Assembly (NCBI GenBank): GCA_937901925.1
Contig: CALGTS010000016.1
Location: 1-32,000, forward strand
Source: an uncultured Bacteroidales bacterium
GTDB lineage: Bacteria; Bacteroidota; Bacteroidia; Bacteroidales; WCHB1-69
DNA length: 32,000 nt
Direction: 5' to 3'
Below are positions 2,007 through 16,024 of this stretch, in pieces (position 1 is the first letter of the stretch; each line of letters opens with the position of its first letter). The notes beneath the pieces were generated by a model. The model ran no database searches and was not told the origin of the DNA. It saw nothing but the letters and a program-made list of their open reading frames with translations. Position numbers and translations under genes: made by a program.

Positions 2007-2918
2007 ATGACCCCGACCAACCTTTTCAACCGCTACCTCTGGCTTTTGGAGAAACTTTCCCCTAACCGTAGGCTCACCAAGGAGGAGATAGACCGGCTTT
2101 GGGAAATGTCTTCCCTCAACAAAAATGGCGAGAAGGTGATTCCGCGCCGCACGTTCGCACGGATGCGCGATGCCATAGATGAACTGTTCGGCATCCGCAT
2201 TGCCTGCGACCGCTCCAACAACGTCTATTACATCGCAGACAATCTGGAAGAACAGACCCAGAATGTCCGAAAGTTCCTGCTCTCCGCCTTCTCCGTGAAT
2301 CACCTGCTGCGCGAGAACCAGGACATGATGCCCCGCATCCTGATGGACAATGTGTCAACCGGTGGCAACGCTTTTCTGCAGGAGATCACAGCCGCCATGC
2401 GCGACAACCGCCGCATCGCCATTACCTACCAGAGTTTTGAAATGCGACAGGTTCGCGAGTTTGAGGTTTGCCCGTATGCCCTCCGCTACGCCAATCATCG
2501 CTGGTATCTGCTCGCCAAAACCGACTTCCACACCGCATTGCGTCTTTACGCCCTCGACCGTATGAGTGCAGTTGTGGTCACGAACAAAAACTTCAGTCTC
2601 CCCAAGGACTTTGATGCTTCATACTATTTCTCCCTTTTCTTCGGAGCGATGATTACCGATGCCAATGTAGAGACTATCCGTCTGAAAGCCAGTGATTTTC
2701 GAACGCCCTATCTCCGTTCACTACCCTTGCACCATAGCCAGAAAGAGATCCGTCCCGGTGAGTTTGAACTGCACCTTGTCCCCACCCCCGACTTTCTGCA
2801 AGCCCTGCGTTCCATCGGTCCGGACATTGAAATCACACATCCGAAATGGTTGCGGAAACAGTTCTTGGACGAGGCACGGACGCTGATAAAACGATACGGT
2901 AACAAAGAACTGCCCTAA
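2007..2918 (+). CDS. WYL-domain transcriptional regulator (paralog A), C-terminal tail apparently frameshifted
   Basis: N-terminal wHTH-like region followed by the 'ANHRWYLLAKTD...LYALDRM' WYL signature. Alignable along its length with the ORF at 12584..13552. GC-rich. A conserved tail continues out of frame (see 2890..3036). Confidence 0.8.
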   Translation: MTPTNLFNRYLWLLEKLSPNRRLTKEEIDRLWEMSSLNKNGEKVIPRRTFARMRDAIDELFGIRIACDRSNNVYYIADNLEEQTQNVRKFLLSAFSVNHLLRENQDMMPRILMDNVSTGGNAFLQEITAAMRDNRRIAITYQSFEMRQVREFEVCPYALRYANHRWYLLAKTDFHTALRLYALDRMSAVVVTNKNFSLPKDFDASYYFSLFFGAMITDANVETIRLKASDFRTPYLRSLPLHHSQKEIRPGEFELHLVPTPDFLQALRSIGPDIEITHPKWLRKQFLDEARTLIKRYGNKELP

Positions 2919-3157: not shown

Positions 3158-3165
3158 TATGTTTG
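3158..3165 (+). promoter_or_regulatory. -7 promoter box (TAtgTTTG) for the RAYT gene
   Basis: Exact TAnnTTTG match 30 nt upstream of the ATG at 3195. It lies inside the longer GTG-started ORF (3111), which argues for the 3195 start. Confidence 0.4.
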
Positions 3166-3194
3166 CAGGGAATGAAAACAATTTTATAAACAAT

Positions 3195-3831: not shown

Positions 3832-3848
3832 TATTTTTGTTATTTTTG
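3832..3848 (+). promoter_or_regulatory. Two adjacent -7 boxes (TAttTTTG at 3832-3839 and 3841-3848)
   Basis: Exact TAnnTTTG matches. The second, 'tatttttgccg', resembles the promoter part of the repeated junction module (4179, 9229, 11811). It may drive RNA copy A. Confidence 0.3.
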
Positions 3849-3920
3849 CCGTCGAAAATATCAAATAGTATTAACGAAAAAACAACAAAAAAAAGAAAAA
3901 GACTAAAAACCAACTAAATA

Positions 3921-4106
3921 CATATTATAGATAGCGTTTGTGGCTATCCTTGAACGTCAAATTTCCACAACGTCCTCGTTGCGAGGGCAAAAACCAATCA
4001 AGGAGAGTTATAAATGCCGTAGTAATACGGCGTGGAATGACTTGTTAGATTGGTGGGGCGTGGAAACCCTGACGTTCAGGCAAGGAATAAGTTCCACGCT
4101 TTTTTT
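3921..4106 (+). ncRNA. Unclassified structured RNA, copy A (5' end uncertain), ending in an intrinsic terminator
   Basis: Highly similar to 13778..13961. Differences fall in loops or are compensatory in helices. Indels break all reading frames between copies. It ends with a GC-rich stem plus T-run. Confidence 0.7.
4058..4106 (+). terminator. Intrinsic terminator of RNA copy A
   Basis: GCGTGGAA (4058-4065) pairs with TTCCACGC (4092-4099) and is followed by T7 (4100-4106). Confidence 0.7.
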
Positions 4107-4155: not shown

Positions 4156-4197
4156 CACTTTTTGGCAGGGTGGCGTTCTATTTTTGCCGCGTTGAAA
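4156..4197 (+). repeat. Junction module copy 1 (right hairpin arm plus -7 box TAttTTTG at 4179-4186)
   Basis: 42 nt identical to 9206-9247 ('cactttttggcagggtggcgttctatttttgccgcgttgaaa'). It precedes the ATGAAAAAA start at 4228. Confidence 0.85.
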
Positions 4198-4227
4198 CTG
4201 AAATAATAACCACTTAAAATAGGTCGT

Positions 4228-7200
4228 ATGAAAAAAGGAATGATTACATTTTTAGCGATTTTATGGGCATTCTCTCTTGCGAATGCCCAAACCGTAACGC
4301 TGACTTTCACGGGACGTGATGCCAGCAGCCAACACGTGCAACTCCATCGAGTATGTGTTACAAACCTCACAAGAGGTTGGCAAGAAACCATTTATTGGCC
4401 CGACACAACATTGTCGATGCAAAACAGTACGGGAATAAGCGAGAACGGGTTGGGAGAAGGTTTCTCTTTGGCACAAAATGTACCCAATCCCTTTTCCGGA
4501 GAAACCGAGGTGATTATGGTCACAGATGCAACTGGTGAAGTTTTTCTTACAGTGAGCGATGTTACGGGCAAGTCCGTTGCTGTTTTTTCGAGGATGTTGG
4601 AACCAGGCGGGCACCATTTTCGGATACGTTTGGCGGTTGCGCAAACCTACATCCTCACCGCCCGGCAAGGTGCAAGGAGTGCCTCCGTTAAAATGGTGAA
4701 CAAGGGTACGTCAAAGGGCAATGAAATCCTCTACGAGGGAAGTGGGAATCCCATCTCCTATACATTGAAGTCCAGCACCACGCATCCCTTCACCTTTGGC
4801 GACCAAATGGAATATGTGGGCTATGCTGTCATCAATGGCAGTGAAGAGGAGAGCCAGCGCATCACCCAGGCGCAAGGCGCTTCACAGACATTTGTGATGC
4901 AATTTCAGGGAGAGCAACACAGATTGCCGACAGTTATTACAAGTGCGGTAACGGAAATAACGGAAAACTCTGCTTTATGCGGGGGGAGTGTTACGGATGA
5001 AGGTAGCGGTGCAGTGACGGGAAGAGGTGTGTGCTGGGGCACATCTCATAATCCTACCATAAATGACAGCTTGACCGCAGAAGGTTCTGGCATTGGCTCT
5101 TTCACGAGTAATATTACGGAATTGGAATCCTCCACAACGTATTATGTCCGAGCTTACGCCACGAATAATGTGGGAACGGCGTATGGGCAAGAAATTGCTT
5201 TTACAACAGTGGATGAAATATTGCCATCAGTGACGGGAAATATCACCTATAATCAGTACACATGCGTACATATTGCAGGATCTGTTGACTATGAGGGAAG
5301 CAGCCCGGTTTTGGAAAAAGGCGTATGTTGGTCAACCTCACCTAATCCTACAATTGCCGATAACTATATGAGTTTTGGTGGTGGTGTCGGATCTTATAGT
5401 TGTTCTATAACAGATTTGAACCCTGAAACAAGATACTATTTTTCAGTGTATGCCAGAAATAATGCGGGAATAACCTGTGGACCTGTGAATGGAGGAGGCT
5501 ATGACGGATCTGTGACAACAGGTTATTATCCTACTCCTTATTTTGACAACATTAGTAATCCGACTGTTATTGATGAAAGCACCATGCAGATTTCGTTTGA
5601 TGTAACATGGTATCCAACTACTTATTGCAGAGATTCTATTGTTGAAAAAGGTTTCTGCTGGACCACTTCGAATAGTCACTACTACCAATCACCCACTCTT
5701 TCTGATAATTACATCTCATTGGGGGCTGGAGAAGGAAGTGTGACATATACCATGACAGGTCTAACGCCGAATGTTTATTATCACTTCCGTCCCTACGCTA
5801 TCACAACGGCAGGAGTGACATTTTATGGCAGCACTTTCTTCAAAAAAATAATCTTGCACACTCCGCAAGTCAGTACAGCCAGCGTGAGCGACATCACAGA
5901 TATATCGGCTGTGTGTGGCGGCAACGTAACAGGTACGGGCACAAATCAATTTGACGCTGTCGTAACGGCGCGAGGCGTATGTTGGAGCACTTCTCATAAT
6001 CCTACTATTGCAGATAGTCATACCTCTGATGGCAGTGGCACGGGCAGTTTCACAAGCAGTATTACAGGGCTTGCACCCGGCACAACGTATTATGTTCGGG
6101 CGTATGCGACAAACAGTATTGGGACAGCTTATGGAAACGAGGTGAATTTCACGACGGCTGTACCCGTCATTTTGCCTTCAGTGACAACTTCGCCCGTATT
6201 AAACATCACGGAGCATGCGGCATCTTGCAGCGGCAACGTCATTTCCGATGGGGGTACAACAGTTACGGGAAGAGGAGTATGTTGGAGCACTTCCCATAAT
6301 CCCACTATTGTAGATAACCATACTTATGGCGGCAGTGGTACGGGCAATTTTGACTGTATCATCTCAGGACTCGCATCTGGAACGACGTATTACGCACGAG
6401 CGTTTGCAATCAATAATATAGGGGTGGCGTATGGTGGTGAATTGGAATTCACTACCCTCCAGGTGCAATCATGTCCCAACATACCAACAGTTACCGACTA
6501 TGACGGTAACACATACAATACGGTACAAATTGGCAACCAATGTTGGATGAAAGAAAACTTGCGCACCACGCATTATGCAGATGGCACTGCTATCACACTT
6601 GCCCAAGGTAGTGGGAGTTCGAATACCATCCCATTTTATTACACGAACAACGGCGGCTACCACTATTATAATTGGCCGGCAGCGAAAGGATGGGGTTCTG
6701 ACGGTGTGAATTCAATATGCCCAGAGGGATGGCATGTGCCAAGTGCTGAGGAGTGGTTGCTGTTAATTCAATATGTAAGAAGCCAAAGCCAATATGCCTG
6801 TGATAATAACTATGCGTATATTGCAAAAGCATTAGCATCTACATCTTCAGTTTGGTCTAATAGTACAGATTACTGTGCAGTGGGCAACAATGAAATCCTC
6901 AACAATGGTACGGGTTTTAGTGCAATGCCTGCTGGAATTTTTGGGAATAATGGGAATAATTGGTCTTCTGTTGCAATTGCTACATTTTGGTCTGCAACAG
7001 GGGAAATAGGAACAACATCGCTTGCAAACGCCATGAAGATTTACTACAATAGCCCTACTGTAGATATTTCATCATATGATAAAAGTGTTGGTCTTGCCAT
7101 TCGCTGTCTCCGTGACGGTACTTCTTCGGCTGGATTACCCACTGTCATTACTAATTCGATGAGTGATATTTCTGAAACGACTGCCACATGTGGCGGTAAT

Positions 7201-8097
7201 ATAGTATCAGACGGTGGAACACCTGTCACCTCTCGTGGTGTATGTTGGTCAACCTCACCTAATCCTACAATAAATGACTTTCATACTAATAATGGAATAG
7301 GCATAGGGAGTTTTATTAGCAACATCACGGGACTTACTCATGGCACTACCTATTATGCACGTGCATACGCCACTAATGCTAATGGGACTTCTTACGGCGC
7401 AGAGGTGACTTTTACAACCTCCATAACATGTGGAGTACACACGGTAAGTGATTATGATGGAAACGAATATAATACAGTACAGATTGGTGACCAATGTTGG
7501 ATGAAAGAGAATATGCGAACCACGCACTTCGCTGACGGCAGGACTATTGCACAAGCAACTGTTTCCCAATATTCTTCCAGTGATCCTTATTATTACAATC
7601 CTGGCTTTGACACGGAGTACGGTTTTTTTTACAATTGGATTGCCATGACTTATGCCACATCTACCAGTGGCTGGGATCCGAGCGGTGTGCGACAAGGTGT
7701 CTGTCCGATGGGTTGGCATGTTCCAAGCGATAGTGAGTGGACAGAATTGACACAGTATGTGGGAAGCCAAAGTCAATACAGATGTGGTAACAACAACACC
7801 TATATTGCTAAAGCCTTGGCGAGTACTACTGGATGGGATGTTCACGTAACAAACACTTGTCACGTAGGCTATTTGCAAAGTGGAAACAATGCCACTGGTT
7901 TCAGTGCCTTGCCGGCAGGTAGTTACCTGCATATGGGTAGCTTTTTCAATTCATCTTATTATGCCAATTTTTGGAGTGCTACCGAAAACAGCAGTACGCA
8001 TGGAATCAGGTGGTATTTGGTATATTTTTCTCCGAATATAAACAGCGACACATGTGCTAAAGCTAATGCCTATTCCGTCCGCTGCCTCCGCGATTAA
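4228..8097 (+). CDS. Large secreted repeat protein: signal peptide, N-terminal T9SS-CTD-like domain, six ~90-aa Ig/FN3-like repeats, two FISUMP (Fibrobacter succinogenes major paralogous) domains
   Basis: Signal peptide 'FLAILWAFSLANAQ'. 'LAQNVPNPFSGETEV...LEPGGHHFRI...TYILTA...VKMV' matches the T9SS sorting-domain pattern. The repeats carry 'RGVCWSTSHNPTI...TTYYVRAYATN..GTAYG'. 'GNQCWMKENLR...GWHVPS..EW...FSA.PAG...FWSAT...RCLRD' occurs twice (about 6472-7116 and 7429-8094). Confidence 0.85.
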   Translation: MKKGMITFLAILWAFSLANAQTVTLTFTGRDASSQHVQLHRVCVTNLTRGWQETIYWPDTTLSMQNSTGISENGLGEGFSLAQNVPNPFSGETEVIMVTDATGEVFLTVSDVTGKSVAVFSRMLEPGGHHFRIRLAVAQTYILTARQGARSASVKMVNKGTSKGNEILYEGSGNPISYTLKSSTTHPFTFGDQMEYVGYAVINGSEEESQRITQAQGASQTFVMQFQGEQHRLPTVITSAVTEITENSALCGGSVTDEGSGAVTGRGVCWGTSHNPTINDSLTAEGSGIGSFTSNITELESSTTYYVRAYATNNVGTAYGQEIAFTTVDEILPSVTGNITYNQYTCVHIAGSVDYEGSSPVLEKGVCWSTSPNPTIADNYMSFGGGVGSYSCSITDLNPETRYYFSVYARNNAGITCGPVNGGGYDGSVTTGYYPTPYFDNISNPTVIDESTMQISFDVTWYPTTYCRDSIVEKGFCWTTSNSHYYQSPTLSDNYISLGAGEGSVTYTMTGLTPNVYYHFRPYAITTAGVTFYGSTFFKKIILHTPQVSTASVSDITDISAVCGGNVTGTGTNQFDAVVTARGVCWSTSHNPTIADSHTSDGSGTGSFTSSITGLAPGTTYYVRAYATNSIGTAYGNEVNFTTAVPVILPSVTTSPVLNITEHAASCSGNVISDGGTTVTGRGVCWSTSHNPTIVDNHTYGGSGTGNFDCIISGLASGTTYYARAFAINNIGVAYGGELEFTTLQVQSCPNIPTVTDYDGNTYNTVQIGNQCWMKENLRTTHYADGTAITLAQGSGSSNTIPFYYTNNGGYHYYNWPAAKGWGSDGVNSICPEGWHVPSAEEWLLLIQYVRSQSQYACDNNYAYIAKALASTSSVWSNSTDYCAVGNNEILNNGTGFSAMPAGIFGNNGNNWSSVAIATFWSATGEIGTTSLANAMKIYYNSPTVDISSYDKSVGLAIRCLRDGTSSAGLPTVITNSMSDISETTATCGGNIVSDGGTPVTSRGVCWSTSPNPTINDFHTNNGIGIGSFISNITGLTHGTTYYARAYATNANGTSYGAEVTFTTSITCGVHTVSDYDGNEYNTVQIGDQCWMKENMRTTHFADGRTIAQATVSQYSSSDPYYYNPGFDTEYGFFYNWIAMTYATSTSGWDPSGVRQGVCPMGWHVPSDSEWTELTQYVGSQSQYRCGNNNTYIAKALASTTGWDVHVTNTCHVGYLQSGNNATGFSALPAGSYLHMGSFFNSSYYANFWSATENSSTHGIRWYLVYFSPNINSDTCAKANAYSVRCLRD

Positions 8098-8127
8098 CAT
8101 AAAAATTCAATAAATATGGGAGGCAGC

Positions 8128-8154
8128 CGAAAATCCCTCAAAGAGTAGGCGAAA
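8128..8154 (+). repeat. Cassette leader repeat, copy 1
   Basis: 'cgaaaatccctcaaagagtaggcgaaa' here versus 'cgaaaatccctcaatgagcaggcaaaa' at 9746-9772. Each lies a few tens of nt upstream of a low-GC nuclease gene. Confidence 0.55.
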
Positions 8155-8172
8155 GAATAAAAATCTATTATT

Positions 8173-9168
8173 ATGACGAATAATAAATCAACCCAAAGTA
8201 ACACACCGAGTAAATTTTTTAAACTACCATACAATATGGATGGTAACAGCTGTACAACACTTTTTAAGCACGGGTATTTCAATTTCCCTATAAAAGAATA
8301 TAATGGATTGGGACGAAACAAAGAACATTGTCTTGGCAGTTATACATTATTCGTTGCAAAGGATGTAAAGGAAAAGTATGCGAAAGACGGCTTCATAAGC
8401 GAAATACTTAACATGATTGATAATGACAAGGTTCAAATAAGAATATTTACTTCTCCTTACAAAAGGGGAGGCAAGAAAGGAGAGGTCGTTCGTTGTGCTA
8501 TCGATTATATCTTTTTGCAACAAATCAAAAAACTGTTTGTCAGTACTCTGGCTTATCTATATGCAAAAAAAGATGTTCCAGAAATGGAATCCATGGAGTT
8601 TACTTTCGACTATTCGGACTTGGAAGCCAGAACAGTCTCTTTGTCTTCTTTGAATTTATATACACCATTGGACAACCCTTTTTTTGAGTATGCGAGAAAT
8701 TATGCCTCTTTCCTTTCTTTGGAAGACATCAGTTCTGGAAAACTGAAAACACAAGATGACTCTGAAAGAAACGATTTCTACAAACCCGAACTACTGTCAC
8801 CGTGGAAAACGGCGGATAACATTGACAAAGATAAATCTTATTTATTAGATATTCCAGGAATATATATGCTGTATAATTCTAACAACAACAATTTCTATAT
8901 CGGCAAATCCAAAAACCTTTTGCAACGCATCAAGAAACATTATGATGACGAAAACGATCCGTCATACGGGTTCACACATTACCGCTACAGTATAATCCAA
9001 AGCGAATATTTTGATGTTTTAGACTTGATTGAGAACGCTGCCATACATGATGTAGCATGGATTTTGAATATGCCAGAATCAAAAAGATATAAAAAAGCGC
9101 TTTCTACTTTTGCTGATATAAACAACTGCATAATGACAAATAAGATAGAACGTCAAACAAAGAAATAA
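8173..9168 (+). CDS. GIY-YIG nuclease-domain protein (C-terminal) with an uncharacterised N-terminal region
   Basis: 'IPGIYMLYNSNNNNFYIGKSKNLLQRIKKHY' gives GIY-x10-YIG plus the conserved Arg, with a downstream 'LIENAAIHD' Glu. Visibly low-GC ORF. Confidence 0.75.
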   Translation: MTNNKSTQSNTPSKFFKLPYNMDGNSCTTLFKHGYFNFPIKEYNGLGRNKEHCLGSYTLFVAKDVKEKYAKDGFISEILNMIDNDKVQIRIFTSPYKRGGKKGEVVRCAIDYIFLQQIKKLFVSTLAYLYAKKDVPEMESMEFTFDYSDLEARTVSLSSLNLYTPLDNPFFEYARNYASFLSLEDISSGKLKTQDDSERNDFYKPELLSPWKTADNIDKDKSYLLDIPGIYMLYNSNNNNFYIGKSKNLLQRIKKHYDDENDPSYGFTHYRYSIIQSEYFDVLDLIENAAIHDVAWILNMPESKRYKKALSTFADINNCIMTNKIERQTKK

Positions 9169-9247
9169 TAATCGTCAGTTTTCCACACCCCACTCGCCAC
9201 CCTGCCACTTTTTGGCAGGGTGGCGTTCTATTTTTGCCGCGTTGAAA
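9165..9247 (+). repeat. Junction module copy 2: conserved tail, perfect 12-bp GC-rich hairpin and -7 promoter box
   Basis: The tail 'ataataatcgtcagttttccacacc' (9165-9189) is identical to 11746-11770. The hairpin is GCCACCCTGCCA-ctttt-TGGCAGGGTGGC (9196-9224). TAttTTTG lies at 9229-9236. The module probably acts as a terminator followed by a promoter. Confidence 0.85.
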
Positions 9248-9284
9248 TTGAGAGAATATTTTATAACCCTTAAATTCCAAAAAA

Positions 9285-9683
9285 ATGAAAAAAAACGATC
9301 GCGCAGCATTGAGGTACCAGATACTGCTGATGCTGCAACAAAATGGACCTCTTACCGAAACGGAAATCACCCATCGGCTGGACGATATCATAGGAATGGA
9401 CGAAGAAGAACTAGACGAATGTTATGAAAATTGCCCTAACGACAAGGTGTTTTACAAATGTGTCGCAACCAACGAACAAGACCTAAAAGCGGCCGGATTA
9501 GTTGAGTTCTTCGGAAACTACGGTCTCTGCATCACAGATATCGGTGCCCGGGCACTGGTGGACAACGAGAAGACCAGACGAATTGAGTACGACTACCTTC
9601 TACAATTTCCGGAATACTGCAAATGGATAAAGAACTTCCGTGAAGGGACCAAAGGAACAAAAGAAATAATCGAAGAGTTTTAA
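9285..9683 (+). CDS. Small winged-helix protein resembling the N-terminal domain of Mrr-type restriction proteins
   Basis: 132 aa. 'RYQILLMLQQNGPLTETEI' and 'DLKAAGLVEFFGNYGLCITDIGARAL' fit the Mrr_N-like wHTH pattern as I recall it. No catalytic domain is present. Confidence 0.6.
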   Translation: MKKNDRAALRYQILLMLQQNGPLTETEITHRLDDIIGMDEEELDECYENCPNDKVFYKCVATNEQDLKAAGLVEFFGNYGLCITDIGARALVDNEKTRRIEYDYLLQFPEYCKWIKNFREGTKGTKEIIEEF

Positions 9684-9745
9684 TCATATTTTATGCACTG
9701 AAACGACAATCCAATAATGCGGATTCCGCAAACATGGACGAATAG

Positions 9746-9772
9746 CGAAAATCCCTCAATGAGCAGGCAAAA
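9746..9772 (+). repeat. Cassette leader repeat, copy 2
   Basis: See 8128-8154. A 14-nt identical core 'cgaaaatccctcaa' is followed by further matches. Confidence 0.55.
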
Positions 9773-9803
9773 AACAAGAACAAACAATAAAAAAACACTG
9801 ATT

Positions 9804-10940
9804 ATGGAACACAAATTGACAAAAACAGAAGTGAAATATGGTATTTTGGTCATTAAAGAGAAGGAAAACGGTATAGGATTGCCGTCATACTACCAACCGA
9901 TTACCATACATGATGTTGCAACAGGCAAAGAGTATAGCAAAAGAATGCATTTGTCTGTAAGAAATCGTATAGACGGCCTAACAAGCCTGTACAGAGCAAA
10001 CCTCGTTTCAGAAGGGGATGCGGTGAATCTGGAATTGGAAGGGAATGTGTTAAACGTTTCCTTTATAAAAAAGGAAGAGACCCAATTTCAGAAAAACCAA
10101 GATGAAATCGTCGAACAACGCGAGGTGTTGGAGAACCTTAAAGAAACCATTGAATCCGTCAGGGATATAATAACCAACCTGGAGTATCTTTTCTATCATA
10201 ACGAAACAAATGTGCGGATAGAAATTGTTGAACGGATTCTCAATGCTTTAAGATGGCACTTCCCCGAGCTTTCGCGGGAACAAAAAGGCAGAACAGGGAA
10301 ACGTGTCGATATTGCCCTCTATAAAAAGAACTACGACTATCTGAAATGCATGGCGCTGATTGAGGTGAAATCCATAGACAAGGATTTAGACGATGAAGAT
10401 ATTTTCCAACAGCTTCTTGGCTATTTGGATGATCCAAGATTTGATTCCGTACCGATAGGGATACTGACAAACGGGCGTATCTGGATGGCCTACGAAAGAA
10501 GCGGGGATCTGATTGGTTGTGTGGATTTTCTGTCGGACACGGATGAGGAACTCGCGAACTTTTTCGAATATTTGGAGTATGAGCGCATCGACGAGTTTGC
10601 CGATGCTAATTTTCCAGAACGGGAAAGAGACTATGATGGGAAAGACCGGCACAATATCGTGGTGGAATATGCCAAAAAGGGGAAGTTGTGTATGGACAAT
10701 TCAACTGAAACTTTCAAGGCCTTCATTATGGAGCATCTTGAAGATGTGCAGGAACTTCAAAACAACAATTATTTCCCCATTCCCATTTTGTCCGAAAAGG
10801 GAAATGAACTCCGTAATGCAAGCAAAGTAAGAGGAAAAAAACTATACATCACAGGGGATCATAGCACCTATTATAAGCTAATGCTGATCAAGCAGATTAT
10901 CAGCGATTGCGGGATAAAGGCCAAAGCATATCTTGAATAA
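9804..10940 (+). CDS. PD-(D/E)xK nuclease-motif protein with uncharacterised N- and C-terminal regions
   Basis: 'GKRVDIALYKKNYDYLKCMALIEVKSID' fits D...ExK and resembles HsdR-N/restriction-endonuclease-like cores. The ATG at 9804 is preferred because the 9717 start lies upstream of and reads through the leader repeat. Confidence 0.7.
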   Translation: MEHKLTKTEVKYGILVIKEKENGIGLPSYYQPITIHDVATGKEYSKRMHLSVRNRIDGLTSLYRANLVSEGDAVNLELEGNVLNVSFIKKEETQFQKNQDEIVEQREVLENLKETIESVRDIITNLEYLFYHNETNVRIEIVERILNALRWHFPELSREQKGRTGKRVDIALYKKNYDYLKCMALIEVKSIDKDLDDEDIFQQLLGYLDDPRFDSVPIGILTNGRIWMAYERSGDLIGCVDFLSDTDEELANFFEYLEYERIDEFADANFPERERDYDGKDRHNIVVEYAKKGKLCMDNSTETFKAFIMEHLEDVQELQNNNYFPIPILSEKGNELRNASKVRGKKLYITGDHSTYYKLMLIKQIISDCGIKAKAYLE

Positions 10941-11006
10941 AACGGCAAACATCTTCCAACAACAATAAAACAAATCAGGTTAATGTGCCTGTAAAACATC
11001 AAAACA

Positions 11007-11729
11007 ATGGAAAATCAATTTGAGCAGCATTTTTTTGAAGCAATCGGAAAGATGAACAAGGAAGCACTAAAGAATGGACTCGACACATTGGACAACACAA
11101 ACATAGGGAAAAGTCTCAAAACTTTTTCGATTATAACAGCTGAAAATCCTAAAGGAGAAAAATTGCAACGTGCCGAAAACGAAATAAGAATGTCTGAATT
11201 AAAAAAGGCACTTGAACAAGAGAGAATTTTGTTTATATCACAAAAGGGGGGTTACAAAACTGATGAAAATCCTGATGGTGCAGAAAACTCACTTATTTTG
11301 ATAAATGCGCAATCATTTGTTGCAGAATCTTTGTCTTTGAAATTTCAACAAAAGAGTTTCATTCATTGTAAATGTGAAAACAACAAAATAACAAGTTGTT
11401 ATTACGAAACAAAAGATTATAAATCATATAAACTTTTAGAAACAATAATAAATCCAATAAATAACATAGAAGAAACAGACGATTGTCATTCTATGTGCAT
11501 CTTTAATCATAATCAAATAAAATACACGATATCCTTCAAATTGTTTGAAGATATTGCTGATTTTATAGCTGATTCCATGAATATTTCACTGAACGAATAC
11601 GATGTAAGATTAAACGAAGAAAGCATAAGAATAGCTGCTTTTGGTTGTGGCTCGTCTCGTTATTATCGCAACATGACTATGTACAAAGCTATACAAGAAA
11701 ACATTAAAAGACATCTGTCAAAAGAATAA
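11007..11729 (+). CDS. Hypothetical protein (240 aa), low GC
   Basis: Clean ORF 66 nt after the nuclease gene. The 'FSIITAENPKGEKL' motif vaguely recalls the ITAxNP motif of an uncharacterised DUF family. No confident assignment. Confidence 0.65.
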   Translation: MENQFEQHFFEAIGKMNKEALKNGLDTLDNTNIGKSLKTFSIITAENPKGEKLQRAENEIRMSELKKALEQERILFISQKGGYKTDENPDGAENSLILINAQSFVAESLSLKFQQKSFIHCKCENNKITSCYYETKDYKSYKLLETIINPINNIEETDDCHSMCIFNHNQIKYTISFKLFEDIADFIADSMNISLNEYDVRLNEESIRIAAFGCGSSRYYRNMTMYKAIQENIKRHLSKE

Positions 11730-11745
11730 TGTATGTAACCTTTTC

Positions 11746-11830
11746 ATAATAATCGTCAGTTTTCCACACCTTACTCCGCCACCCAGCCGCTTTTTGGCAG
11801 GGTGGCGTCCTATTTTTGCCGCATCAAAAT
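11746..11830 (+). repeat. Junction module copy 3 (tail, imperfect hairpin, -7 box TAttTTTG at 11811-11818)
   Basis: The tail is identical to 9165-9189. The hairpin at 11778-11806 has two mismatches in the left arm. It precedes the ATGAAAAAG start at 11864. Confidence 0.85.
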
Positions 11831-11863
11831 AAAACCTTTTCATCAACAATTAAAATTCAAGAC

Positions 11864-12487
11864 ATGAAAAAGAACAATTCATCGGAAGAGATTTTCTCTT
11901 TTGCGAAAACAATAAACAAAGAGAACATCAAGAAAGGCTCTGACTTCGTCAACATTGAGGTGGGGACGTTCAGTGAAACGGAGATTGACCACATTGATTG
12001 GCCGGAAGGCGTTCAATCTATCGGTCACGACGCTTTCGCTCACTGCGGCAATTTGGAAACCGTGGTGATTCCCGACACCGTTGTGGAAGTGGGCGAACGG
12101 GCCTTCATCGAGTGCCTACTGCTGCGTTCCATCACATTCTCCAGAAACATGGTGGAGATTCCATCAGGTTGTTGTGCCGAGTGTCTCGCTTTGAAGTCGG
12201 TCGCCATTCCAGCCAATATCCGCACCATCGGCTATAGCGCCTTTGTCAAATGCCTGAGCCTGAAAAACGTGACCCTCCCGGAGGGTGTTACTACCATCGA
12301 GGATGACGCCTTCTCGTTCTGCCACCGCTTGGAAACCATCCGCCTGCCTGCTAGTCTTTCAAAAATCGGGGAAAACGTTTTCTATATGTGCGAAAATCTG
12401 AGGAATATTGTCGTACCCAAGGGCTGCAAAGAAAAGTTTTCGGAGATGCTACCGGAATGGCGGGATCAGGTTAAAGAAGTAGAATAA
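11864..12487 (+). CDS. BspA-type leucine-rich repeat protein (no signal peptide)
   Basis: Repeats of about 23 aa such as 'IGHDAFAHCGNLETVVIPDTV', 'VGERAFIECLLLRSITF', 'IGYSAFVKCLSLKNVTLPEGV' and 'IEDDAFSFCHRLETIRLP'. The ORF-track start at 11816 lies inside the promoter box, so 11864 was chosen. Confidence 0.8.
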   Translation: MKKNNSSEEIFSFAKTINKENIKKGSDFVNIEVGTFSETEIDHIDWPEGVQSIGHDAFAHCGNLETVVIPDTVVEVGERAFIECLLLRSITFSRNMVEIPSGCCAECLALKSVAIPANIRTIGYSAFVKCLSLKNVTLPEGVTTIEDDAFSFCHRLETIRLPASLSKIGENVFYMCENLRNIVVPKGCKEKFSEMLPEWRDQVKEVE

Positions 12488-12555
12488 GGATGCGTTGGGC
12501 GAGAGTTTAATATGGAATATTATAGATCTGAGGCCATTGCTGTTGGAAATAGTTG

Positions 12556-12563
12556 TATTTTTG
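12556..12563 (+). promoter_or_regulatory. -7 promoter box (TAttTTTG) for WYL gene B
   Basis: Exact TAnnTTTG match 21 nt upstream of the ATG at 12584. Confidence 0.35.
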
Positions 12564-12583
12564 CTGCATCAAAAAGTAAAAAT

Positions 12584-13552
12584 ATGGATAAGCTCAAGAA
12601 GTGCATCTGGATTGTCAACACGGTAGCGGCAGCTGGTGATGCGGGCATCACATTGACCGAACTCAACCGCAAGTGGACCGCCGACCCCGAGAAAGACCCT
12701 ATCCCATATCGCACTTTCCTCCGACTGCGGGACTACATTGCCAACGTTTTCGGCATTGACATCGATTGCGACAAGAGGTATAACGCCTACTATATCCCTT
12801 ATCGCGACGAGTTGTACGATGACAGACTGAAAATGTGGCTGCTCAACAGTTTCGCTATGCACAGTCGGCTGTCGGGCAATCTGGAACTTCGACGACGGGT
12901 GCGCTTTGAGGAAATTCCGGGTGGCAACCGATGGTTGGATCCTATCATGGAAGCTATGCAACAATTCAGCAAGATTTCATTCCTCTACCAAAAGGAGTAT
13001 GAAACAGAAAAAACTTCATACCCGAACTGTGCACCTTTGGCATTGAAACTCTTTAAGCAGCGGTGGTATCTGATAGCGGACAAGGGCGTGGGTGAAATAC
13101 GCTTTTTCGCCCTTGACCGCATAGCGGAAGTGAAATCCCTTGATGAGAAATTCCAGATACCCTCGGATTTCGATCTGGACGATCTCTTCCAGGATGCCTT
13201 TGGAATGTATGTGAATCCCGAAATCGCCACCGAACGTATTGTGGTAAAGGCAGACAGAGACCAAAGCCTCTACTTGATGAGTTTGCCGTTACACCACAGC
13301 CAGCAAATCATTGAAACAACGGATGATTACTCGATTTTCTCTTGGCGACTGAAACCTACATACGATTTCATCCAACAACTACTCACAATGAATCTACATA
13401 TTGAGGTTTTAGAGCCGTTGTCGTTGCGAACCAAGATTGCCGAATTACTGAAAAGTATGGCCAAGAAACATAACTCTTCGCCAACACCTCACAGTTCGCG
13501 AAAGCTCGTTACAAAGGCTACAAAAAACTCAATGAAGGAAAATAAAAATTGA
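12584..13552 (+). CDS. WYL-domain transcriptional regulator (paralog B), tail apparently frameshifted
   Basis: 'FKQRWYLIADKG...FFALDRI' WYL signature and 'LPLHHSQ' shared with paralog A. The last ~25 codons are out of frame relative to the conserved tail at 13477-13545. Confidence 0.8.
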   Translation: MDKLKKCIWIVNTVAAAGDAGITLTELNRKWTADPEKDPIPYRTFLRLRDYIANVFGIDIDCDKRYNAYYIPYRDELYDDRLKMWLLNSFAMHSRLSGNLELRRRVRFEEIPGGNRWLDPIMEAMQQFSKISFLYQKEYETEKTSYPNCAPLALKLFKQRWYLIADKGVGEIRFFALDRIAEVKSLDEKFQIPSDFDLDDLFQDAFGMYVNPEIATERIVVKADRDQSLYLMSLPLHHSQQIIETTDDYSIFSWRLKPTYDFIQQLLTMNLHIEVLEPLSLRTKIAELLKSMAKKHNSSPTPHSSRKLVTKATKNSMKENKN

Positions 13553-13565
13553 GTAAATAGATTTC

Positions 13566-13592
13566 GAGGAGGTGATTTCCTCCTCTTTTTTT
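13566..13592 (+). terminator. Intrinsic terminator after WYL gene B
   Basis: GAGGAGG-tgattt-CCTCCTC followed by T7. Confidence 0.7.
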
Positions 13593-13624
13593 ATTTAAAA
13601 CCAAAGGTGTATGTAAAAAAATTG

Positions 13625-13632
13625 TATTTTTG
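13625..13632 (+). promoter_or_regulatory. -7 promoter box (TAttTTTG) upstream of RNA copy B
   Basis: Exact TAnnTTTG match. It lies about 145 nt upstream of the start of the conserved RNA block, so the RNA 5' end is uncertain. Confidence 0.3.
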
Positions 13633-13777
13633 CAATCTGTAACAGATTCATTGTTACATAGAAAAAACGAATGGATAGGCTTTGCCCGACAACTACGTTC
13701 CGCTTTGCCTACCATCGAAGAGATAGAAAATAATTTAAACAAAAATAATATCGATTGAGATAAGAAACTAACATATA

Positions 13778-13961
13778 CATATTATATTAGATAGCGTTTG
13801 TGGCTATCCTTGAAGTCCAATTTCCACATCGTCCTCGAAAGAGGACACAACTCATCAAGGATTAGTTATGAATGCCGTAGTATCACGGCGTGGAATAACT
13901 TGTTAGATGAGTGGGCGTGGAAACCCGGACTTCAAGCAAGGAATAAATTCCACGTTTTTTT
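13778..13961 (+). ncRNA. Unclassified structured RNA, copy B, in the leader position of an XRE gene
   Basis: Paralog of 3921-4106. The terminator is GCGTGGAA (13915-13922) paired with TTCCACG (13948-13954) plus T7 (13955-13961). The T-run abuts the ATG at 13962. Confidence 0.7.
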
Positions 13962-14177
13962 ATGACAGGAATCAACGACATACACATTGGCAGACGCATC
14001 AAAGCGAAATTAAGAGAGCAAGGGCGCACCTCCGTCTGGTTGGCCACACAGATTCCTTGTTCCCCAAATCATCTGTACAAGGTGTATGACAAGTCCTCCA
14101 TCAACACCGACCTATTGAAGCGTATCTCCCTGATTTTGGATTATAATTTCTTTGAGGATTTTATCCAAAATGGATAG
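13962..14177 (+). CDS. XRE-family helix-turn-helix protein (71 aa)
   Basis: 'IGRRIKAKLREQGRTSVWLATQIPCSPNHLYKVYDKSSINTDLLKRIS' fits the HTH_XRE pattern. Confidence 0.7.
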   Translation: MTGINDIHIGRRIKAKLREQGRTSVWLATQIPCSPNHLYKVYDKSSINTDLLKRISLILDYNFFEDFIQNG

Positions 14178-14232
14178 GCTTTACTATCAACATTAAATAG
14201 GTTTTGCAATTTGTTTTCCAAGAAATTTACTA

Positions 14233-14240
14233 TACATTTG
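14233..14240 (+). promoter_or_regulatory. -7 promoter box (TAcaTTTG) for the exported-protein operon
   Basis: Exact TAnnTTTG match 43 nt upstream of the ATG at 14283. Confidence 0.4.
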
Positions 14241-14282
14241 TGGCGTTATTTTTTTTTAAAAATTATACTTAAATAGGTTAAT

Positions 14283-14759
14283 ATGAAATTCAATAGTTTA
14301 TTCGGAAAACTCTTGATGTTCACGATTGTCATTCTACTTTTTTCAACAAATATAAAAGCGCAAGAGTGGCATTATGAGATTTCCTGCGCTGGCATAGGAG
14401 TGAAAGGCAACTTTCTGGTGGAAGTAACCAGCTATGACAAAACTGTTGACGCAGCTCTTGCACAGATGAGAAAAGATGCGGTACACGGTGTTCTTTTTAA
14501 AGGCATGGACGGCAAGTGCATGCAGAAACCTTTGGTGAGTAAGGCAGAGTTGGAGTCCGAATACGAATCTTTTTTTTCCAAATTCTTCAGTTCATCAGGA
14601 GACTATGGCAAATATTTGGAAGATGATACGAATACGAGTATGTCTGTGGTGAAGGTGGGGAAAAAGCAATACAAAGTAACCAAAGTACTTTCCGTAAAAA
14701 AGGATATGTTGCGTAAAGATTTGGAAAAGGCCGGCATACTTAAACCTTTAGGATATTAG
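14283..14759 (+). CDS. Exported hypothetical protein (paralog of the next gene)
   Basis: Signal peptide 'LLMFTIVILLFSTNIKAQ'. It shares 'C.G.G..G', 'K.AV..V.FKG', 'PL' and 'FF...GDY..Y' with 14792..15280. Confidence 0.8.
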   Translation: MKFNSLFGKLLMFTIVILLFSTNIKAQEWHYEISCAGIGVKGNFLVEVTSYDKTVDAALAQMRKDAVHGVLFKGMDGKCMQKPLVSKAELESEYESFFSKFFSSSGDYGKYLEDDTNTSMSVVKVGKKQYKVTKVLSVKKDMLRKDLEKAGILKPLGY

Positions 14760-14791
14760 ACTTTTGTCATATTCTAAAATATTAGACAACA

Positions 14792-15280: not shown

Positions 15281-15284
15281 TGAT

Positions 15285-16013: not shown

Positions 16014-16024
16014 TTTACCCTGAT

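What the first reader, a model, noticed from the sequence alone, without database searches (positions are those of the whole stretch)
8098..11830. Cassette-like architecture: low-GC nuclease genes bounded by repeated leader and tail/hairpin/promoter modules
Two visibly low-GC segments are each preceded by a leader repeat (8128-8154 and 9746-9772). Each is followed by the same module: a 25-nt identical tail (9165-9189 and 11746-11770), a GC-rich 12-bp hairpin (9196-9224 and 11778-11806) and a TAttTTTG -7 box (9229-9236 and 11811-11818). A third copy that lacks the tail and left arm (4156-4197, 42 nt identical to 9206-9247) precedes the surface-protein gene. A promoter-only relic lies at 3841-3851. 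Each module is followed by a GC-richer gene that starts ATGAAAAA(A/G). The pattern looks like foreign cassettes dropped between a resident gene and its terminator/promoter junction, or like recombination between repeated junctions. No recombinase is adjacent.
Basis: seen in the sequence. Interest (0 to 1): 0.7.

Follow-up and report, generated by a model that had tools for sequence, protein, structure and literature searches.

The report
Repeated promoter junctions in defence island
An uncultured Bacteroidales bacterium keeps a row of nuclease genes separated by copies of one ~85-base junction (inverted repeat plus promoter), and related strains differ by whole units gained, lost or fused at these junctions.

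Summary
The repeats are real and non-random. The architecture is not integron-like.

- **Anatomy.** Window 3.9-13.6 kb is the variable core of a chromosomal nuclease-rich island. Short transcription units are separated by one reiterated junction: a conserved "tail", a 13-bp inverted repeat (IR) with a 5-nt spacer, and a Bacteroidetes -7 box.
- **Variation.** Ten different unit arrangements occur in about a dozen related metagenomic loci. Breakpoints lie in the junctions, inside the Mrr_N gene (domain fusions), or inside GIY-YIG (a deletion remnant).
- **Junction.** The same junction always drives the terminal LRR-WYL operon. In the most distant relative it sits in a pure promoter region, not after a gene. 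Its IR matches the geometry of BrxR R-boxes, and WYL2 models as a full-length DriD/CapW/BrxR-type regulator. I therefore read the junction as promoter plus probable WYL operator, which doubles as a terminator and as a substrate for homologous recombination.
- **Leader.** Copy 1 is a known Rfam motif, DUF805b. In viral contigs this motif is a reiterated element about 21 nt before start codons. Copy 2 is a decayed relative.
- **Extra.** A new covarying structured ncRNA always precedes the array.

No clean leader-to-tail cassette was seen in the one informative comparison.

The parts
2007..2918 (+). WYL1: WYL-WCX regulator gene upstream of the array. A 71-nt remnant at 2968-3038 duplicates the 3' end of WYL2.
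   Evidence: Pfam WYL 1.9e-16 and WCX 4.5e-06. PDB sequence hit to PafBC. Repeat D9.
3864..4106 (+). Structured ncRNA copy 1 (core 3918-4106) ending in an intrinsic terminator. It always lies directly upstream of the first promoter of the array.
   Evidence: MFE -71.6 kcal/mol, z -5.97. Alifold on 6 copies gives 58 pairs, 4 of them compensatory. A further helix variant CATCTC/GAGATG occurs in L040. No Rfam hit.
4156..4208 (+). Junction 1: IR right arm only (4163-4175), -7 box at 4179-4186, and start of the 5' UTR.
   Evidence: 94% identical to 9206-9258. Homology with the MAG ends at 4197.
4228..8097 (+). Surface protein gene (fn3-like repeats, two Fib_succ_major domains), first cistron of unit 1.
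   Evidence: Pfam Fib_succ_major 1.7e-61. Relatives carry other genes at this position.
8117..8151 (+). Leader copy 1: a DUF805b motif 19 nt after the upstream stop codon and 21 nt before the ATG.
   Evidence: Rfam RF02914, 39.9 bits against a gathering score of 35.6. The same motif passes in L001 and L009-L011.
8173..9168 (+). GIY-YIG nuclease gene (331 aa, GC 34.4%).
   Evidence: Pfam GIY-YIG 9.5e-09. 25 homologues were found, some in a prophage and some next to McrBC.
9165..9258 (+). Junction 2: tail 9165-9189, IR 9195-9207 / 9213-9225 with spacer CTTTT, -7 box 9229-9236, and the 5' UTR of Mrr_N.
9285..9683 (+). Mrr_N-like winged-helix gene (132 aa). It is the constant 5' partner of the variable nuclease genes.
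   Evidence: Pfam Mrr_N 2.4e-05, below the gathering score. It is fused to nuclease domains in the MAG, L023 and L004.
9723..9772 (+). Leader copy 2: a decayed DUF805b-like sequence with a broken stem, 34 nt before the ATG.
   Evidence: 72% identical to 8105-8154. No Rfam DUF805b match even at E<=10 in a 127-nt search.
9804..10940 (+). PD-(D/E)xK (HSDR_N-like) nuclease gene, 378 aa.
   Evidence: Pfam HSDR_N 3.6e-04, below the gathering score. 37 homologues, most of them stand-alone proteins of 380-425 aa carrying PF13588 or PF04313.
11007..11729 (+). DUF3293 gene (GC 30.7%), an optional third cistron that is absent in L018.
   Evidence: Pfam DUF3293 1.1e-08. L018 layout.
11737..11843 (+). Junction 3: extended tail 11737-11770, IR 11777-11789 / 11795-11807, -7 box 11811-11818, and the 5' UTR of LRR. 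The direct repeat AACCTTTTCAT lies at both ends.
11864..12487 (+). LRR_5 (BspA-type) gene, conserved partner of WYL2.
   Evidence: Pfam LRR_5 3.9e-50. A gene of similar size (187-212 aa) sits directly upstream of the WYL gene in L006, L018, L019, L040 and L042, and DNA homology to the window LRR gene spans that position (blastn).
12512..13552 (+). WYL2: full-length HTH-WYL-WCX transcription regulator, transcribed from junction 3.
   Evidence: Pfam WYL and WCX. AF2 model with pLDDT 81.8. Foldseek matches full-length DriD (2.9e-15), PafBC, CapW and BrxR.
13770..13961 (+). Structured ncRNA copy 2 (83% identical to copy 1, with compensatory changes).

Best explanation
The region is the variable core of a chromosomal, nuclease-rich island (probably anti-phage defence) in an uncultured Bacteroidales lineage. 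It is built as a row of short transcription units.

**What the junction does.** Each unit is bounded by a copy of one ~85-nt junction. That junction is the native promoter region of the terminal LRR-WYL2 operon: a tail, a 13-bp inverted repeat with a 5-nt spacer, and a TAnnTTTG -7 box.
- On DNA it is a promoter. Most likely it also carries the operator of the flanking HTH-WYL-WCX regulator (BrxR/CapW/DriD type), so all units and the regulator itself would share one control.
- On RNA the same repeat, followed by the T-run of the -7 box, forms a strong terminator hairpin for the unit on its left.

**How the content changes.** Because the junction is reiterated, homologous recombination between copies adds, deletes, duplicates and swaps units. 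Illegitimate deletions also fuse the constant Mrr_N gene to different nuclease domains, or erase genes.

**The leader.** It is a DUF805b-class motif, which in viral contigs sits upstream of start codons. It probably lets a downstream cistron (GIY-YIG, and formerly the PD-(D/E)xK gene) be expressed inside a polycistronic mRNA.

**Shown:** the repeats, the gene content, the strain-to-strain rearrangements and their breakpoints, the Rfam match, and the regulator fold.
**Inferred:** promoter activity, operator binding, termination, the recombination mechanism, and the defence role.
For: 1. **Rearrangements.** There are ten arrangements between the ncRNA and LRR-WYL.
   - Window, L001 and L009: surface protein plus GIY-YIG, then the Mrr_N / PD-(D/E)xK / DUF3293 unit.
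   - L010: GIY-YIG unit joined directly to LRR.
   - L005/L006: DUF4230 genes plus GIY-YIG.
   - The MAG: three Mrr_N-type units, one of them fused.
   - L004: Mrr_N::GIY-YIG' fusion.
   - L023: Mrr_N::PD-(D/E)xK fusion.
   - L018: no DUF3293.
   - L019, L040/L041 and L042/L043: further variants.
2. **Breakpoints.** Window-versus-MAG homology stops at 4197, just after the -7 box, and resumes at 9165, the tail start. The L010 junction is a hybrid of window junctions 2 and 3.
3. **Concerted evolution.** All three MAG junctions share left-arm variant G. Orthologous junctions in other strains carry T, C or A.
4. **Restricted distribution.** The module occurs only at this locus.
5. **Operator reading.**
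   - The IR arms are 13 bp with a 5-bp spacer and abut the -7 box.
   - The right arm is invariant in about 20 instances. The left arm is variable, absent (junction 1), or lacks compensation.
   - BrxR binds an 11-bp IR with a 5-bp spacer. One repeat alone suffices, and R-BOX2 keeps only IR2 (PMC9122601).
   - The junction precedes the LRR-WYL operon in all 7 loci where that region was read.
   - In L042/L043 two tandem copies lie in a divergent promoter region, downstream of no gene. They keep the core CCCTGCC-N7-GGCAGGG against ~65% background identity.
   - WYL2 models as a full-length DriD/PafBC/CapW/BrxR fold.
6. **Terminator reading.** dG is -28.2 and -22.7 kcal/mol with a T-rich 3' flank. 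It is the top hit of the terminator scan. L019 shows compensatory arm changes.
7. **Leader.** It matches DUF805b above the gathering score. There are 17 further matches in 15 viral contigs, up to 3 per contig, lying 15-39 nt (mostly 20-23) before an ATG. The 4-bp stem covaries.
Against: - No experiment shows transcription start, termination or WYL binding.
- The TTTG in the spacer lies only 14 nt from the -7 box, not the 19-21 nt usual for a Bacteroidetes -33 element (own knowledge).
- PADLOC recognises no known defence system apart from the WYL models.
- Unit 1 starts with a surface-protein gene, or with DUF4230 genes, which are not defence genes.
- Invariance of the right arm could reflect promoter function or gene conversion alone.
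- The hairpin could be only a terminator in this lineage, with the L042 copies only a promoter.
- Most comparison loci are short metagenomic contigs from unknown strains, so the order of events cannot be rooted.
Confidence: 0.6

Rival explanations
1. The junction is only a terminator plus promoter inherited through tandem duplication of an ancestral Mrr_N/LRR-WYL promoter region. No regulator binds it, and the strain differences are ordinary indels in a fast-evolving island. The repeats play no special role.
For: - The hairpin is a strong terminator-like structure.
- The -7 box is generic (D11).
- At least one polymorphism (L040) is an internal deletion that does not use the repeats.
- The Mrr_N fusions have different breakpoints, at window 9608 and 9658.
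Against: - Several breakpoints coincide with the junctions.
- Junction copies within one genome are homogenised.
- The IR core is conserved in sequence, not only in pairing, at ~65% background identity, and at a site where no upstream gene needs a terminator.
- The right arm is kept where the left arm is missing (junction 1).
Confidence: 0.25
2. The leader-to-tail segments are autonomous selfish endonuclease cassettes, like free-standing homing endonuclease genes. They insert between a resident gene and its terminator.
For: - Both segments encode nucleases (GIY-YIG, PD-(D/E)xK).
- GIY-YIG and DUF3293 have low GC.
- The DUF805b leader also precedes HNH and PD-(D/E)xK endonuclease genes in viral contigs.
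- GIY-YIG homologues occur in a prophage and in other islands.
- GIY-YIG follows two different upstream gene sets.
Against: - The GIY-less allele retains a 3' gene remnant, so it is not an empty site.
- The downstream flank is always the same LRR-WYL junction.
- The tail belongs to the LRR-WYL promoter region in the minimal locus.
- The cassette proteins have no PHROG match.
- Distant GIY-YIG homologues lack both leader and tail.
- The PD-(D/E)xK gene has average GC.
Confidence: 0.1
3. This is an integron-like or rAID-like site-specific cassette system. The hairpin would be the recombination site (an attC analogue), and the recombinase would be encoded outside the window.
For: - Co-directional genes are separated by a repeated hairpin-forming element, and content varies between strains.
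- Bacteroidales rAID-1 arrays have repetitive intergenic sequences described as 'reminiscent of integrons' (10.1101/471110).
Against: - No tyrosine or serine recombinase lies in the 32 kb or in the flanks of the related loci. There is only a degenerate RAYT remnant with different REP palindromes.
- No GTTRRRY/RYYYAAC core sites are present (read from the sequence).
- Each unit has its own promoter.
- Breakpoints also fall inside ORFs.
- In L042 the element is a plain promoter region.
Confidence: 0.04

Closest known systems
BrxR/CapW-type WYL-regulated phage-defence islands (Picton et al. 2022, PMC9122601; Luyten et al. 2022, PMC9122589)
   Same: - An HTH-WYL-WCX regulator is encoded in a mosaic island rich in restriction-like genes.
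- An inverted repeat of 11-13 bp with a 5-bp spacer sits next to a promoter.
- One arm is conserved while the other is variable or dispensable.
- The regulator gene is itself transcribed from such a promoter.
   Different: - The IR-promoter is reiterated at least three times as the boundary of every unit, and it doubles as a terminator-like hairpin.
- The regulator sits at the 3' end of its operon, after an LRR gene.
- No BREX, CBASS or other named system is present.
- Binding is untested.
- WYL2 is only 13-22% identical to the solved homologues.
rAID-1 arrays of Bacteroidales (Ross et al., bioRxiv 10.1101/471110)
   Same: - Both occur in Bacteroidales.
- Both are co-directional arrays of horizontally acquired, often low-GC genes.
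- Both have repetitive intergenic sequences and strain-variable content.
   Different: [quoted passage not shown]
- This locus has no recombinase, and its genes are nucleases with DNA-binding partners.
Integron cassette arrays
   Same: A tandem array of genes is separated by a hairpin-forming repeat, and content varies between strains.
   Different: - There is no IntI.
- There are no attC core sites.
- The units carry their own promoters.
- Breakpoints are not fixed.
DUF805b RNA motif (Rfam RF02914, clan CL00115; from Weinberg et al. 2017, PMC5737381)
   Same: Leader copy 1 matches the whole 35-nt model above the gathering score. It has the same 4-bp stem, the same GCCGAAAA loop and the same AAAGAGUAGGC 3' stretch.
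   Different: - Here it precedes a GIY-YIG nuclease gene, not a DUF805 gene.
- Copy 2 has lost the stem and fails the model.
- The function of the family is unknown. I found it reiterated in viral contigs at a fixed distance from start codons.
Mrr-type (type IV) restriction enzymes and constant-N/variable-C polymorphic nucleases
   Same: An Mrr_N winged-helix module is paired with a nuclease module. The same N-terminal module (92-95% nt identity) is joined to three different nuclease modules in different strains.
   Different: - In the window the two modules are separate genes with a leader between them.
- The Mrr_N match is below Pfam's gathering score.
- The 378-aa nuclease family is mostly stand-alone.

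Membership tests
Integron | IntI tyrosine recombinase adjacent to the array | tested here: not met
   Pfam and NCBIfam on all large ORFs of the 32 kb found no integrase. The only hit of that kind is a partial REP_Tyr_transpos match at 3111-3830.
Integron | attC sites with R''/R' core sites (RYYYAAC ... GTTRRRY) and promoterless cassettes | tested here: not met
   The junction sequence has no such cores (read). Each unit is preceded by its own TAnnTTTG box.
rAID-1 (Bacteroidales) | 5' XerD-like recombinase (>44% identity to BF9343_RS08045), at least 2 co-directional genes of GC <=41%, and repetitive intergenic sequences | tested here: not met
   There is no recombinase. Co-directional genes and repeats are present, but only GIY-YIG and DUF3293 are clearly below 41% GC.
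BrxR/CapW/DriD-type WYL-regulated locus | Full-length HTH-WYL-WCX regulator encoded in the locus | tested here: met
   Pfam WYL and WCX in both genes. The WYL2 model (pLDDT 81.8) aligns over ~340 columns to DriD (E 2.9e-15), PafBC, CapW and BrxR.
BrxR/CapW/DriD-type WYL-regulated locus | Inverted-repeat operator at the regulated promoter, including the regulator's own | tested here: inconclusive
   A 13-bp IR with a 5-bp spacer lies 3 nt upstream of the -7 box at every unit and before LRR-WYL2 in all related loci read. The geometry matches the R-BOX. Binding was not tested.
BrxR/CapW/DriD-type WYL-regulated locus | Regulator binds the operator and changes transcription | not testable with these tools
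   Needs EMSA, ChIP or reporter assays.
DUF805b RNA (RF02914) | Covariance-model score at or above the gathering score (35.6 bits) | tested here: met
   Copy 1 (8117-8151) scores 39.9 bits over model positions 1-35. Copy 2 (9735-9769) gives no match at E<=10, so it is not a member.
Intrinsic terminator | GC-rich stem-loop followed by a T-rich tract at the 3' end of a gene | tested here: met
   9195-9225 and 11786-11806 are listed by the terminator scan. dG is -28.2 and -22.7 kcal/mol. Function is untested. Junction 1 and the first L042 copy have no stable hairpin (for junction 1; L042 read), and neither L042 copy lies downstream of a gene.
Bacteroidetes sigma-A promoter | -7 box TAnnTTTG, with -33 TTTG about 19-21 nt upstream (own knowledge of Bayley et al. 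2000) | tested here: inconclusive
   The -7 box is present at all junctions. The only TTTG lies in the IR spacer, 14 nt upstream, which is not the canonical spacing (sequence).
Free-standing homing endonuclease gene | Occupied and empty alleles with identical, clean boundaries | tested here: not met
   The only GIY-less allele found (L040/L041) keeps ~90 nt of the GIY-YIG 3' end.
REP/RAYT system | Repeated palindrome identical to those flanking the RAYT gene | tested here: not met
   The RAYT remnant is flanked by GTAGGGGCGAATAATTATTCGCCCCTAC, which is unrelated to the junction IR (I1/I6).

The most novel reading that the evidence does not exclude
The reiterated IR-promoter junction is a dedicated 'docking and control' element. 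It would be the operator of an LRR-WYL sensor-regulator pair that has been copied in front of each newly acquired unit. Any nuclease gene recombined between two copies would then be expressed, insulated by the hairpin terminator, and placed under the same infection-responsive switch. The covarying ncRNA that always precedes the array, and the DUF805b leaders seen in viral contigs, would be further parts of this platform. This would be a recombinase-free, regulator-anchored analogue of an integron for defence genes.
Probability: 0.2. Interest if true: 0.7.

Novelty: new variant of a known kind. Interest (0 to 1): 0.5.

Why it matters
If the junction is a WYL operator-promoter that also terminates transcription and serves as a recombination substrate, it gives a concrete sequence-level mechanism for two things. 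The first is how a defence island stays mosaic. The second is how it stays under one regulator without a dedicated recombinase. Both are directly testable with EMSA, TSS/Term-seq and long-read population sequencing.

It also supplies three smaller leads:
- a new covarying structured ncRNA linked to WYL regulator genes;
- a genomic context for the orphan Rfam motif DUF805b, as a reiterated element at fixed distance upstream of start codons in low-GC viral contigs;
- natural examples of one Mrr_N module joined to three different nuclease modules.

Tried and rejected
- **Rfam on the junctions and the ncRNA.** There is no family other than DUF805b. Weak hits (S15-Flavobacteria leader 18.6 bits, CrcZ, miRNAs) are far below their gathering scores and were dismissed.
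- **Rfam on leader copy 2 alone.** No DUF805b match.
- **tRNA scan of the window.** None found, so there is no tRNA integration site.
- **Junction pattern in public collections.** One genome, one metagenome contig, no viral contig. The ncRNA core gave nothing in viral contigs, and the ncRNA gave nothing in plasmids.
- **PADLOC, PHROGs and NCBIfam on the cassette proteins.** No named defence system and no phage family.
- **Pfam on the N-terminal parts of the WYL proteins, of GIY-YIG and of the nuclease.** Nothing. The HTH of WYL2 was supported only by the structure model.
- **sRNA pairing idea.** I considered that the ncRNA pairs with the tail. The tail is about 16-17 of 19-20 nt complementary to 4057-4076. 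I did not adopt it, because L019 and L042 keep a tail-like sequence without a detectable ncRNA, and in L042 that sequence lies in a promoter region.
- **DUF805b in the literature.** The 2017 paper's main text does not mention DUF805, and its supplements are not held.
- **Sigma-70 promoter scan.** Uninformative for Bacteroidetes.
- **A mistyped 26-nt leader pattern** gave 0 hits and was replaced.

Full report
**1. Observation check**

- The leaders at 8128-8154 and 9746-9772 agree at 24 of 27 positions. A 22-nt consensus finds only these two sites in 32 kb, with none expected by chance.
- The 25-nt tails at 9165-9189 and 11746-11770 are identical.
- The hairpin at 9195-9225 has 13 perfect pairs and a 5-nt loop, with dG -28.2 kcal/mol.
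- The hairpin at 11777-11807 has one mismatch and one G-U, with dG -22.7 kcal/mol.
- TATTTTTG follows each hairpin after 3 nt.
- A third copy, 4156-4208, is 94% identical to 9206-9258 and lacks the tail and the left arm.
- The half-site TGGCAGGGTGGCG occurs only at these three places in the window.

The GC statement is only partly right.

| Gene or region | GC |
|---|---|
| GIY-YIG | 34.4% |
| DUF3293 | 30.7% |
| PD-(D/E)xK gene | 41.2% |
| Whole window | 40.3% |

**2. Gene content**

| Window coordinates | Product |
|---|---|
| 1010-2002 | REase-ARP nuclease |
| 2007-2918 | WYL-WCX regulator (WYL1) |
| 3111-3830 | Degenerate REP-associated tyrosine transposase, between perfect REP palindromes |
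| 4228-8097 | Surface protein |
| 8173-9168 | GIY-YIG nuclease |
| 9285-9683 | Mrr_N-like winged helix |
| 9804-10940 | HSDR_N-like PD-(D/E)xK nuclease |
| 11007-11729 | DUF3293 |
| 11864-12487 | BspA-type LRR protein |
| 12512-13552 | Second WYL-WCX regulator (WYL2) |

The rest of the window is housekeeping (GH97, YbaK, pyrBI, ftsQAZ). No integrase or invertase is present.

**3. The leader**

Copy 1 (8117-8151) matches Rfam RF02914, the DUF805b motif, at 39.9 bits against a gathering score of 35.6. The same motif passes in three related strains. Copy 2 gives no match even in a 127-nt search at E<=10. Its stem is broken (GGAC/UCCC), so it is a decayed relative.

A pattern scan of IMG/VR returned 16 loci. 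Fifteen of them, searched with Rfam, gave 17 matches above the gathering score, with up to three per contig.
- The motif lies 15-39 nt before an ATG, mostly 20-23 nt, upstream of unrelated and mostly small ORFs. These include an HNH endonuclease and a PD-(D/E)xK endonuclease.
- In 9 of 15 distinct viral cases a same-strand open frame of at least 60 codons ends 0-67 nt upstream.
- The 4-bp stem covaries: AGGA/TCCT, AGGT/ACCT, TGGC/GCCA, AAGA/TCTT.

In the window the motif starts 19 nt after the stop codon of the surface-protein gene and ends 21 nt before the GIY-YIG start. That is the spacing seen in the viral contigs. Distant GIY-YIG homologues, in a prophage and next to McrBC, have no such leader.

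**4. Related loci**

The junction pattern occurs in only one GTDB species representative, the MAG 'Bacteroidetes bacterium OH_CFB_204', with three copies on one contig. It also occurs in one JGI metagenome contig and in no viral contig. More loci were reached through the proteins and compared by blastn.

The table lists the arrangements found between the ncRNA with its first promoter and the terminal LRR-WYL operon. P is the junction promoter, T the tail, IR the inverted repeat and L the leader.

| Arrangement | Loci | Order of elements |
|---|---|---|
| A | window, L001, L009 | P, surface, L-GIY-YIG; T-IR-P, Mrr_N, L'-PD-(D/E)xK, DUF3293; T-IR-P, LRR, WYL |
| B | L010 | surface, L-GIY-YIG; T-IR-P, LRR. 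The Mrr_N unit is absent and the junction is a hybrid of window junctions 2 and 3. |
| C | L005-L008 | P, 190-aa gene, two DUF4230 genes, GIY-YIG (70% aa identity, decayed leader); T-IR-P, LRR, WYL |
| D | the MAG | P, Mrr_N' (102 aa), NucS-like nuclease (249 aa); T-IR (right arm deleted)-P, Mrr_N::PD-(D/E)xK fusion (509 aa); IR-P, then as window 9195-13545; then directly GH97 |
| E | L004 | HEPN/MNT, ncRNA, P, Mrr_N::GIY-YIG' fusion; degenerate IR-P, Mrr_N' |
| F | L023 | Zeta toxin, DUF1016, ncRNA, P, Mrr_N::PD-(D/E)xK fusion |
| G | L018 | PD-(D/E)xK (78% aa identity) without DUF3293; T-IR-P, LRR, WYL |
| H | L019 (~66% nt identity) | short IR-P, PD-(D/E)xK (51%); t-IR-P, 187-aa gene, WYL |
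| I | L040/L041 | P, 190-aa gene, two DUF4230 genes; a ~90-nt 3' remnant of GIY-YIG; T-IR-P, LRR, WYL |
| J | L042/L043 (~65% nt identity) | two tandem IR-promoter copies ~120 nt apart in a divergent promoter region, then an LRR homologue and WYL, with no nuclease unit |

**5. What the comparisons show**

- **(a) Whole units come and go with breakpoints in the junction.** Window-versus-MAG homology stops at 4197, 11 nt after the -7 box, and resumes at 9165, the first base of the tail. L010 joins the left part of junction 2 to the right part of junction 3.
- **(b) Junction copies within one genome are homogenised.** All three MAG copies carry G at left-arm position 9. Other strains carry T, C or A there.
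- **(c) Not every event uses the repeats.** The Mrr_N fusions break at window 9608 (MAG, L023) and 9658 (L004). The GIY-less allele is an internal deletion that leaves the last ~90 nt of the ORF. A clean leader-to-tail cassette is therefore not supported.
- **(d) Mrr_N is not a bystander.** The same Mrr_N sequence (92-95% nt identity) is followed by a leader-bearing PD-(D/E)xK gene, or fused to a divergent PD-(D/E)xK domain (43% aa identity), or fused to a GIY-YIG domain. Most homologues of the 378-aa nuclease are nevertheless stand-alone.

**6. Junction anatomy**

I collected about 20 distinct instances.
- The stretch TTTTTGGCAGGGTGGCGT(T/C)CTA(T/C)TTTTGCCGC is almost invariant.
- The left arm varies without compensation, or is absent (junction 1 in every strain), or is rebuilt.
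- In the more distant L019 both arms change together: CACTGCC/GGCAGTG and CATCAC.../...GTGATG.
- In the minimal locus J the element lies downstream of no gene, so it cannot be needed there as a terminator. It still keeps CCCTGCC-N7-GGCAGGG and a tail-like T-rich stretch against ~65% background identity.
- A junction precedes the LRR-WYL operon in all seven loci where that region was read.

WYL2 modelled with pLDDT 81.8. It aligns over its whole length to DriD (E 2.9e-15), PafBC, CapW and BrxR.

BrxR binds an 11-bp imperfect inverted repeat with a 5-bp spacer next to its promoter. One repeat alone supports binding and repression. A second box keeps only IR2 (PMC9122601). The junction has the same geometry, with 13-bp arms and a 5-bp spacer, and the same asymmetry of conservation.

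I therefore infer that the junction is the autoregulated promoter-operator of LRR-WYL2, copied in front of the other units. As RNA the same repeat plus the T-run of the -7 box is a credible terminator.

**7. The ncRNA**

A 190-250-nt element (3864-4106, with a second copy at 13770-13961) precedes the first promoter of the array in every strain that has one. Its upstream neighbour varies: WYL1, HEPN/MNT, DUF1016, or a PolyVal kinase.
- It folds at -71.6 kcal/mol, z -5.97.
- It ends in a hairpin followed by a run of seven T.
- It has G-U pairs that only work on the + strand.
- It shows compensatory changes in several helices. One helix occurs as CCAATC/GATTGG, CTCATC/GATGAG, CTCGTC/GATGAG and CATCTC/GAGATG.
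- It has no Rfam match.

Its role is unknown. The tail core resembles one strand of its long helix, and I leave that unexplained.

**8. Most likely mechanism**

Shown:
- the repeats;
- the units;
- the rearrangements and their breakpoints;
- the DUF805b identity of leader 1;
- the regulator fold.

Inferred:
- each junction starts transcription of the unit on its right and stops that of the unit on its left;
- the WYL regulator binds the IR and co-regulates all units and itself;
- homologous recombination between junctions, together with illegitimate deletions, generates the diversity;
- DUF805b allows expression of a downstream cistron within a polycistronic RNA;
- the island serves anti-phage defence.

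Confidence in the composite is 0.6. Confidence in the operator step alone is about 0.45.

**9. Rival explanations**

- **Plain terminator-promoter with ordinary indels (0.25).** It is weakened by the sequence-level conservation in locus J, by retention of the right arm alone, and by the homogenisation of copies.
- **Selfish endonuclease cassettes (0.10).** It is weakened by the remnant-bearing GIY-less allele and by the constant downstream flank.
- **Integron-like or rAID-like site-specific system (0.04).** There is no recombinase, there are no core sites, each unit has its own promoter, and breakpoints are variable. rAID-1 is defined by a 5' XerD-like recombinase.

**10. Comparison with known systems and verdict**

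The locus works like a BrxR/CapW-type WYL-regulated mosaic defence island. It differs in that the putative operator-promoter is reiterated as the boundary of every unit, doubles as a terminator-like hairpin, and marks rearrangement breakpoints. Leader 1 is a member of a known Rfam family, and leader 2 is not.

This is a new variant of a known kind. Interest is 0.5. The architecture is real and more organised than a usual defence island, and it offers testable leads. The central regulatory claim remains an inference from sequence.

Noticed in passing
window 3864-4106 and 13770-13961: A structured ncRNA of 190-250 nt with an intrinsic terminator and several covarying helices. It has no Rfam match and always lies just upstream of the first junction promoter. 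Copy 1 follows WYL1 and copy 2 follows WYL2.
   Followed up: partly
window 3044-3101, 3493-3601, 3111-3830: A degenerate REP-associated tyrosine transposase ORF (NCBIfam REP_Tyr_transpos, 54 bits against a cut-off of 80). It is flanked by perfect REP palindromes GTAGGGGCGAATAATTATTCGCCCCTAC and contains three 21-nt tandem REP-like repeats. L019 has a different REP (GTAGAGACGCGATTAATCGCGTCTCTAC) at the equivalent place.
   Followed up: partly
window 2968-3038 vs 13477-13547: A 71-nt, 76%-identical copy of the 3' end of WYL2 lies out of frame just after the WYL1 stop codon. This suggests a segmental duplication of the block 'WYL 3' end to ncRNA'. The MAG has it too.
   Followed up: partly
window 13553-21235: A 7.7-kb segment is absent from the MAG, where WYL2 is followed directly by the GH97 promoter region. 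The segment holds ncRNA copy 2, a small HTH gene, and a cluster of lipoprotein-like genes that includes DUF6175 and a WG-repeat protein.
   Followed up: partly
viral loci L024-L039 (e.g. L026:564-598, 2324-2358, 5423-5457): DUF805b is reiterated in low-GC (26-46%) IMG/VR contigs at a near-fixed ~21 nt before start codons, with a covarying 4-bp stem. This points to a phage-type signal upstream of start codons rather than a DUF805-specific regulator.
   Followed up: partly
window 9173-9189 and 11754-11770 vs 3955-3971 and 4057-4076: The tail core CGTCAGTTTTCCACACC resembles the 5' strand of the long helix of the ncRNA. It is therefore largely complementary to the 3' strand of that helix. It could be chance, shared descent, or sRNA-mRNA pairing.
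   Followed up: partly
window 11737-11747 and 11833-11843: The direct repeat AACCTTTTCAT flanks junction 3, once before the tail and once in the LRR 5' UTR. It may be a trace of the duplication that multiplied the promoter region.
   Followed up: no
window 50-85: AATTTTCACACACTTTTTGGGACAG lies in the 5' UTR of ORF 108-923. It looks like a collapsed tail-plus-spacer-plus-right-arm of the junction, placed downstream of a TATCTTTG box at 35-42.
   Followed up: no
window 24524-24879 (minus-strand ORF 24542-25123): Two blocks of 24-nt tandem repeats lie inside an unannotated 193-aa ORF.
   Followed up: no
L020:5661-5713 and 6876-6900: In a distant locus with a WYL gene, a different AT-rich inverted repeat flanks a DUF4143 ATPase gene next to the WYL gene. 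It reads GATTTTATG-N5-CATAAAATC and again has a 5-nt spacer.
   Followed up: no
window 4228-8097: The surface-protein gene contains four ~194-nt repeats and two ~950-nt-spaced Fib_succ_major modules (repeat families D1, D3, D4, D6).
   Followed up: no
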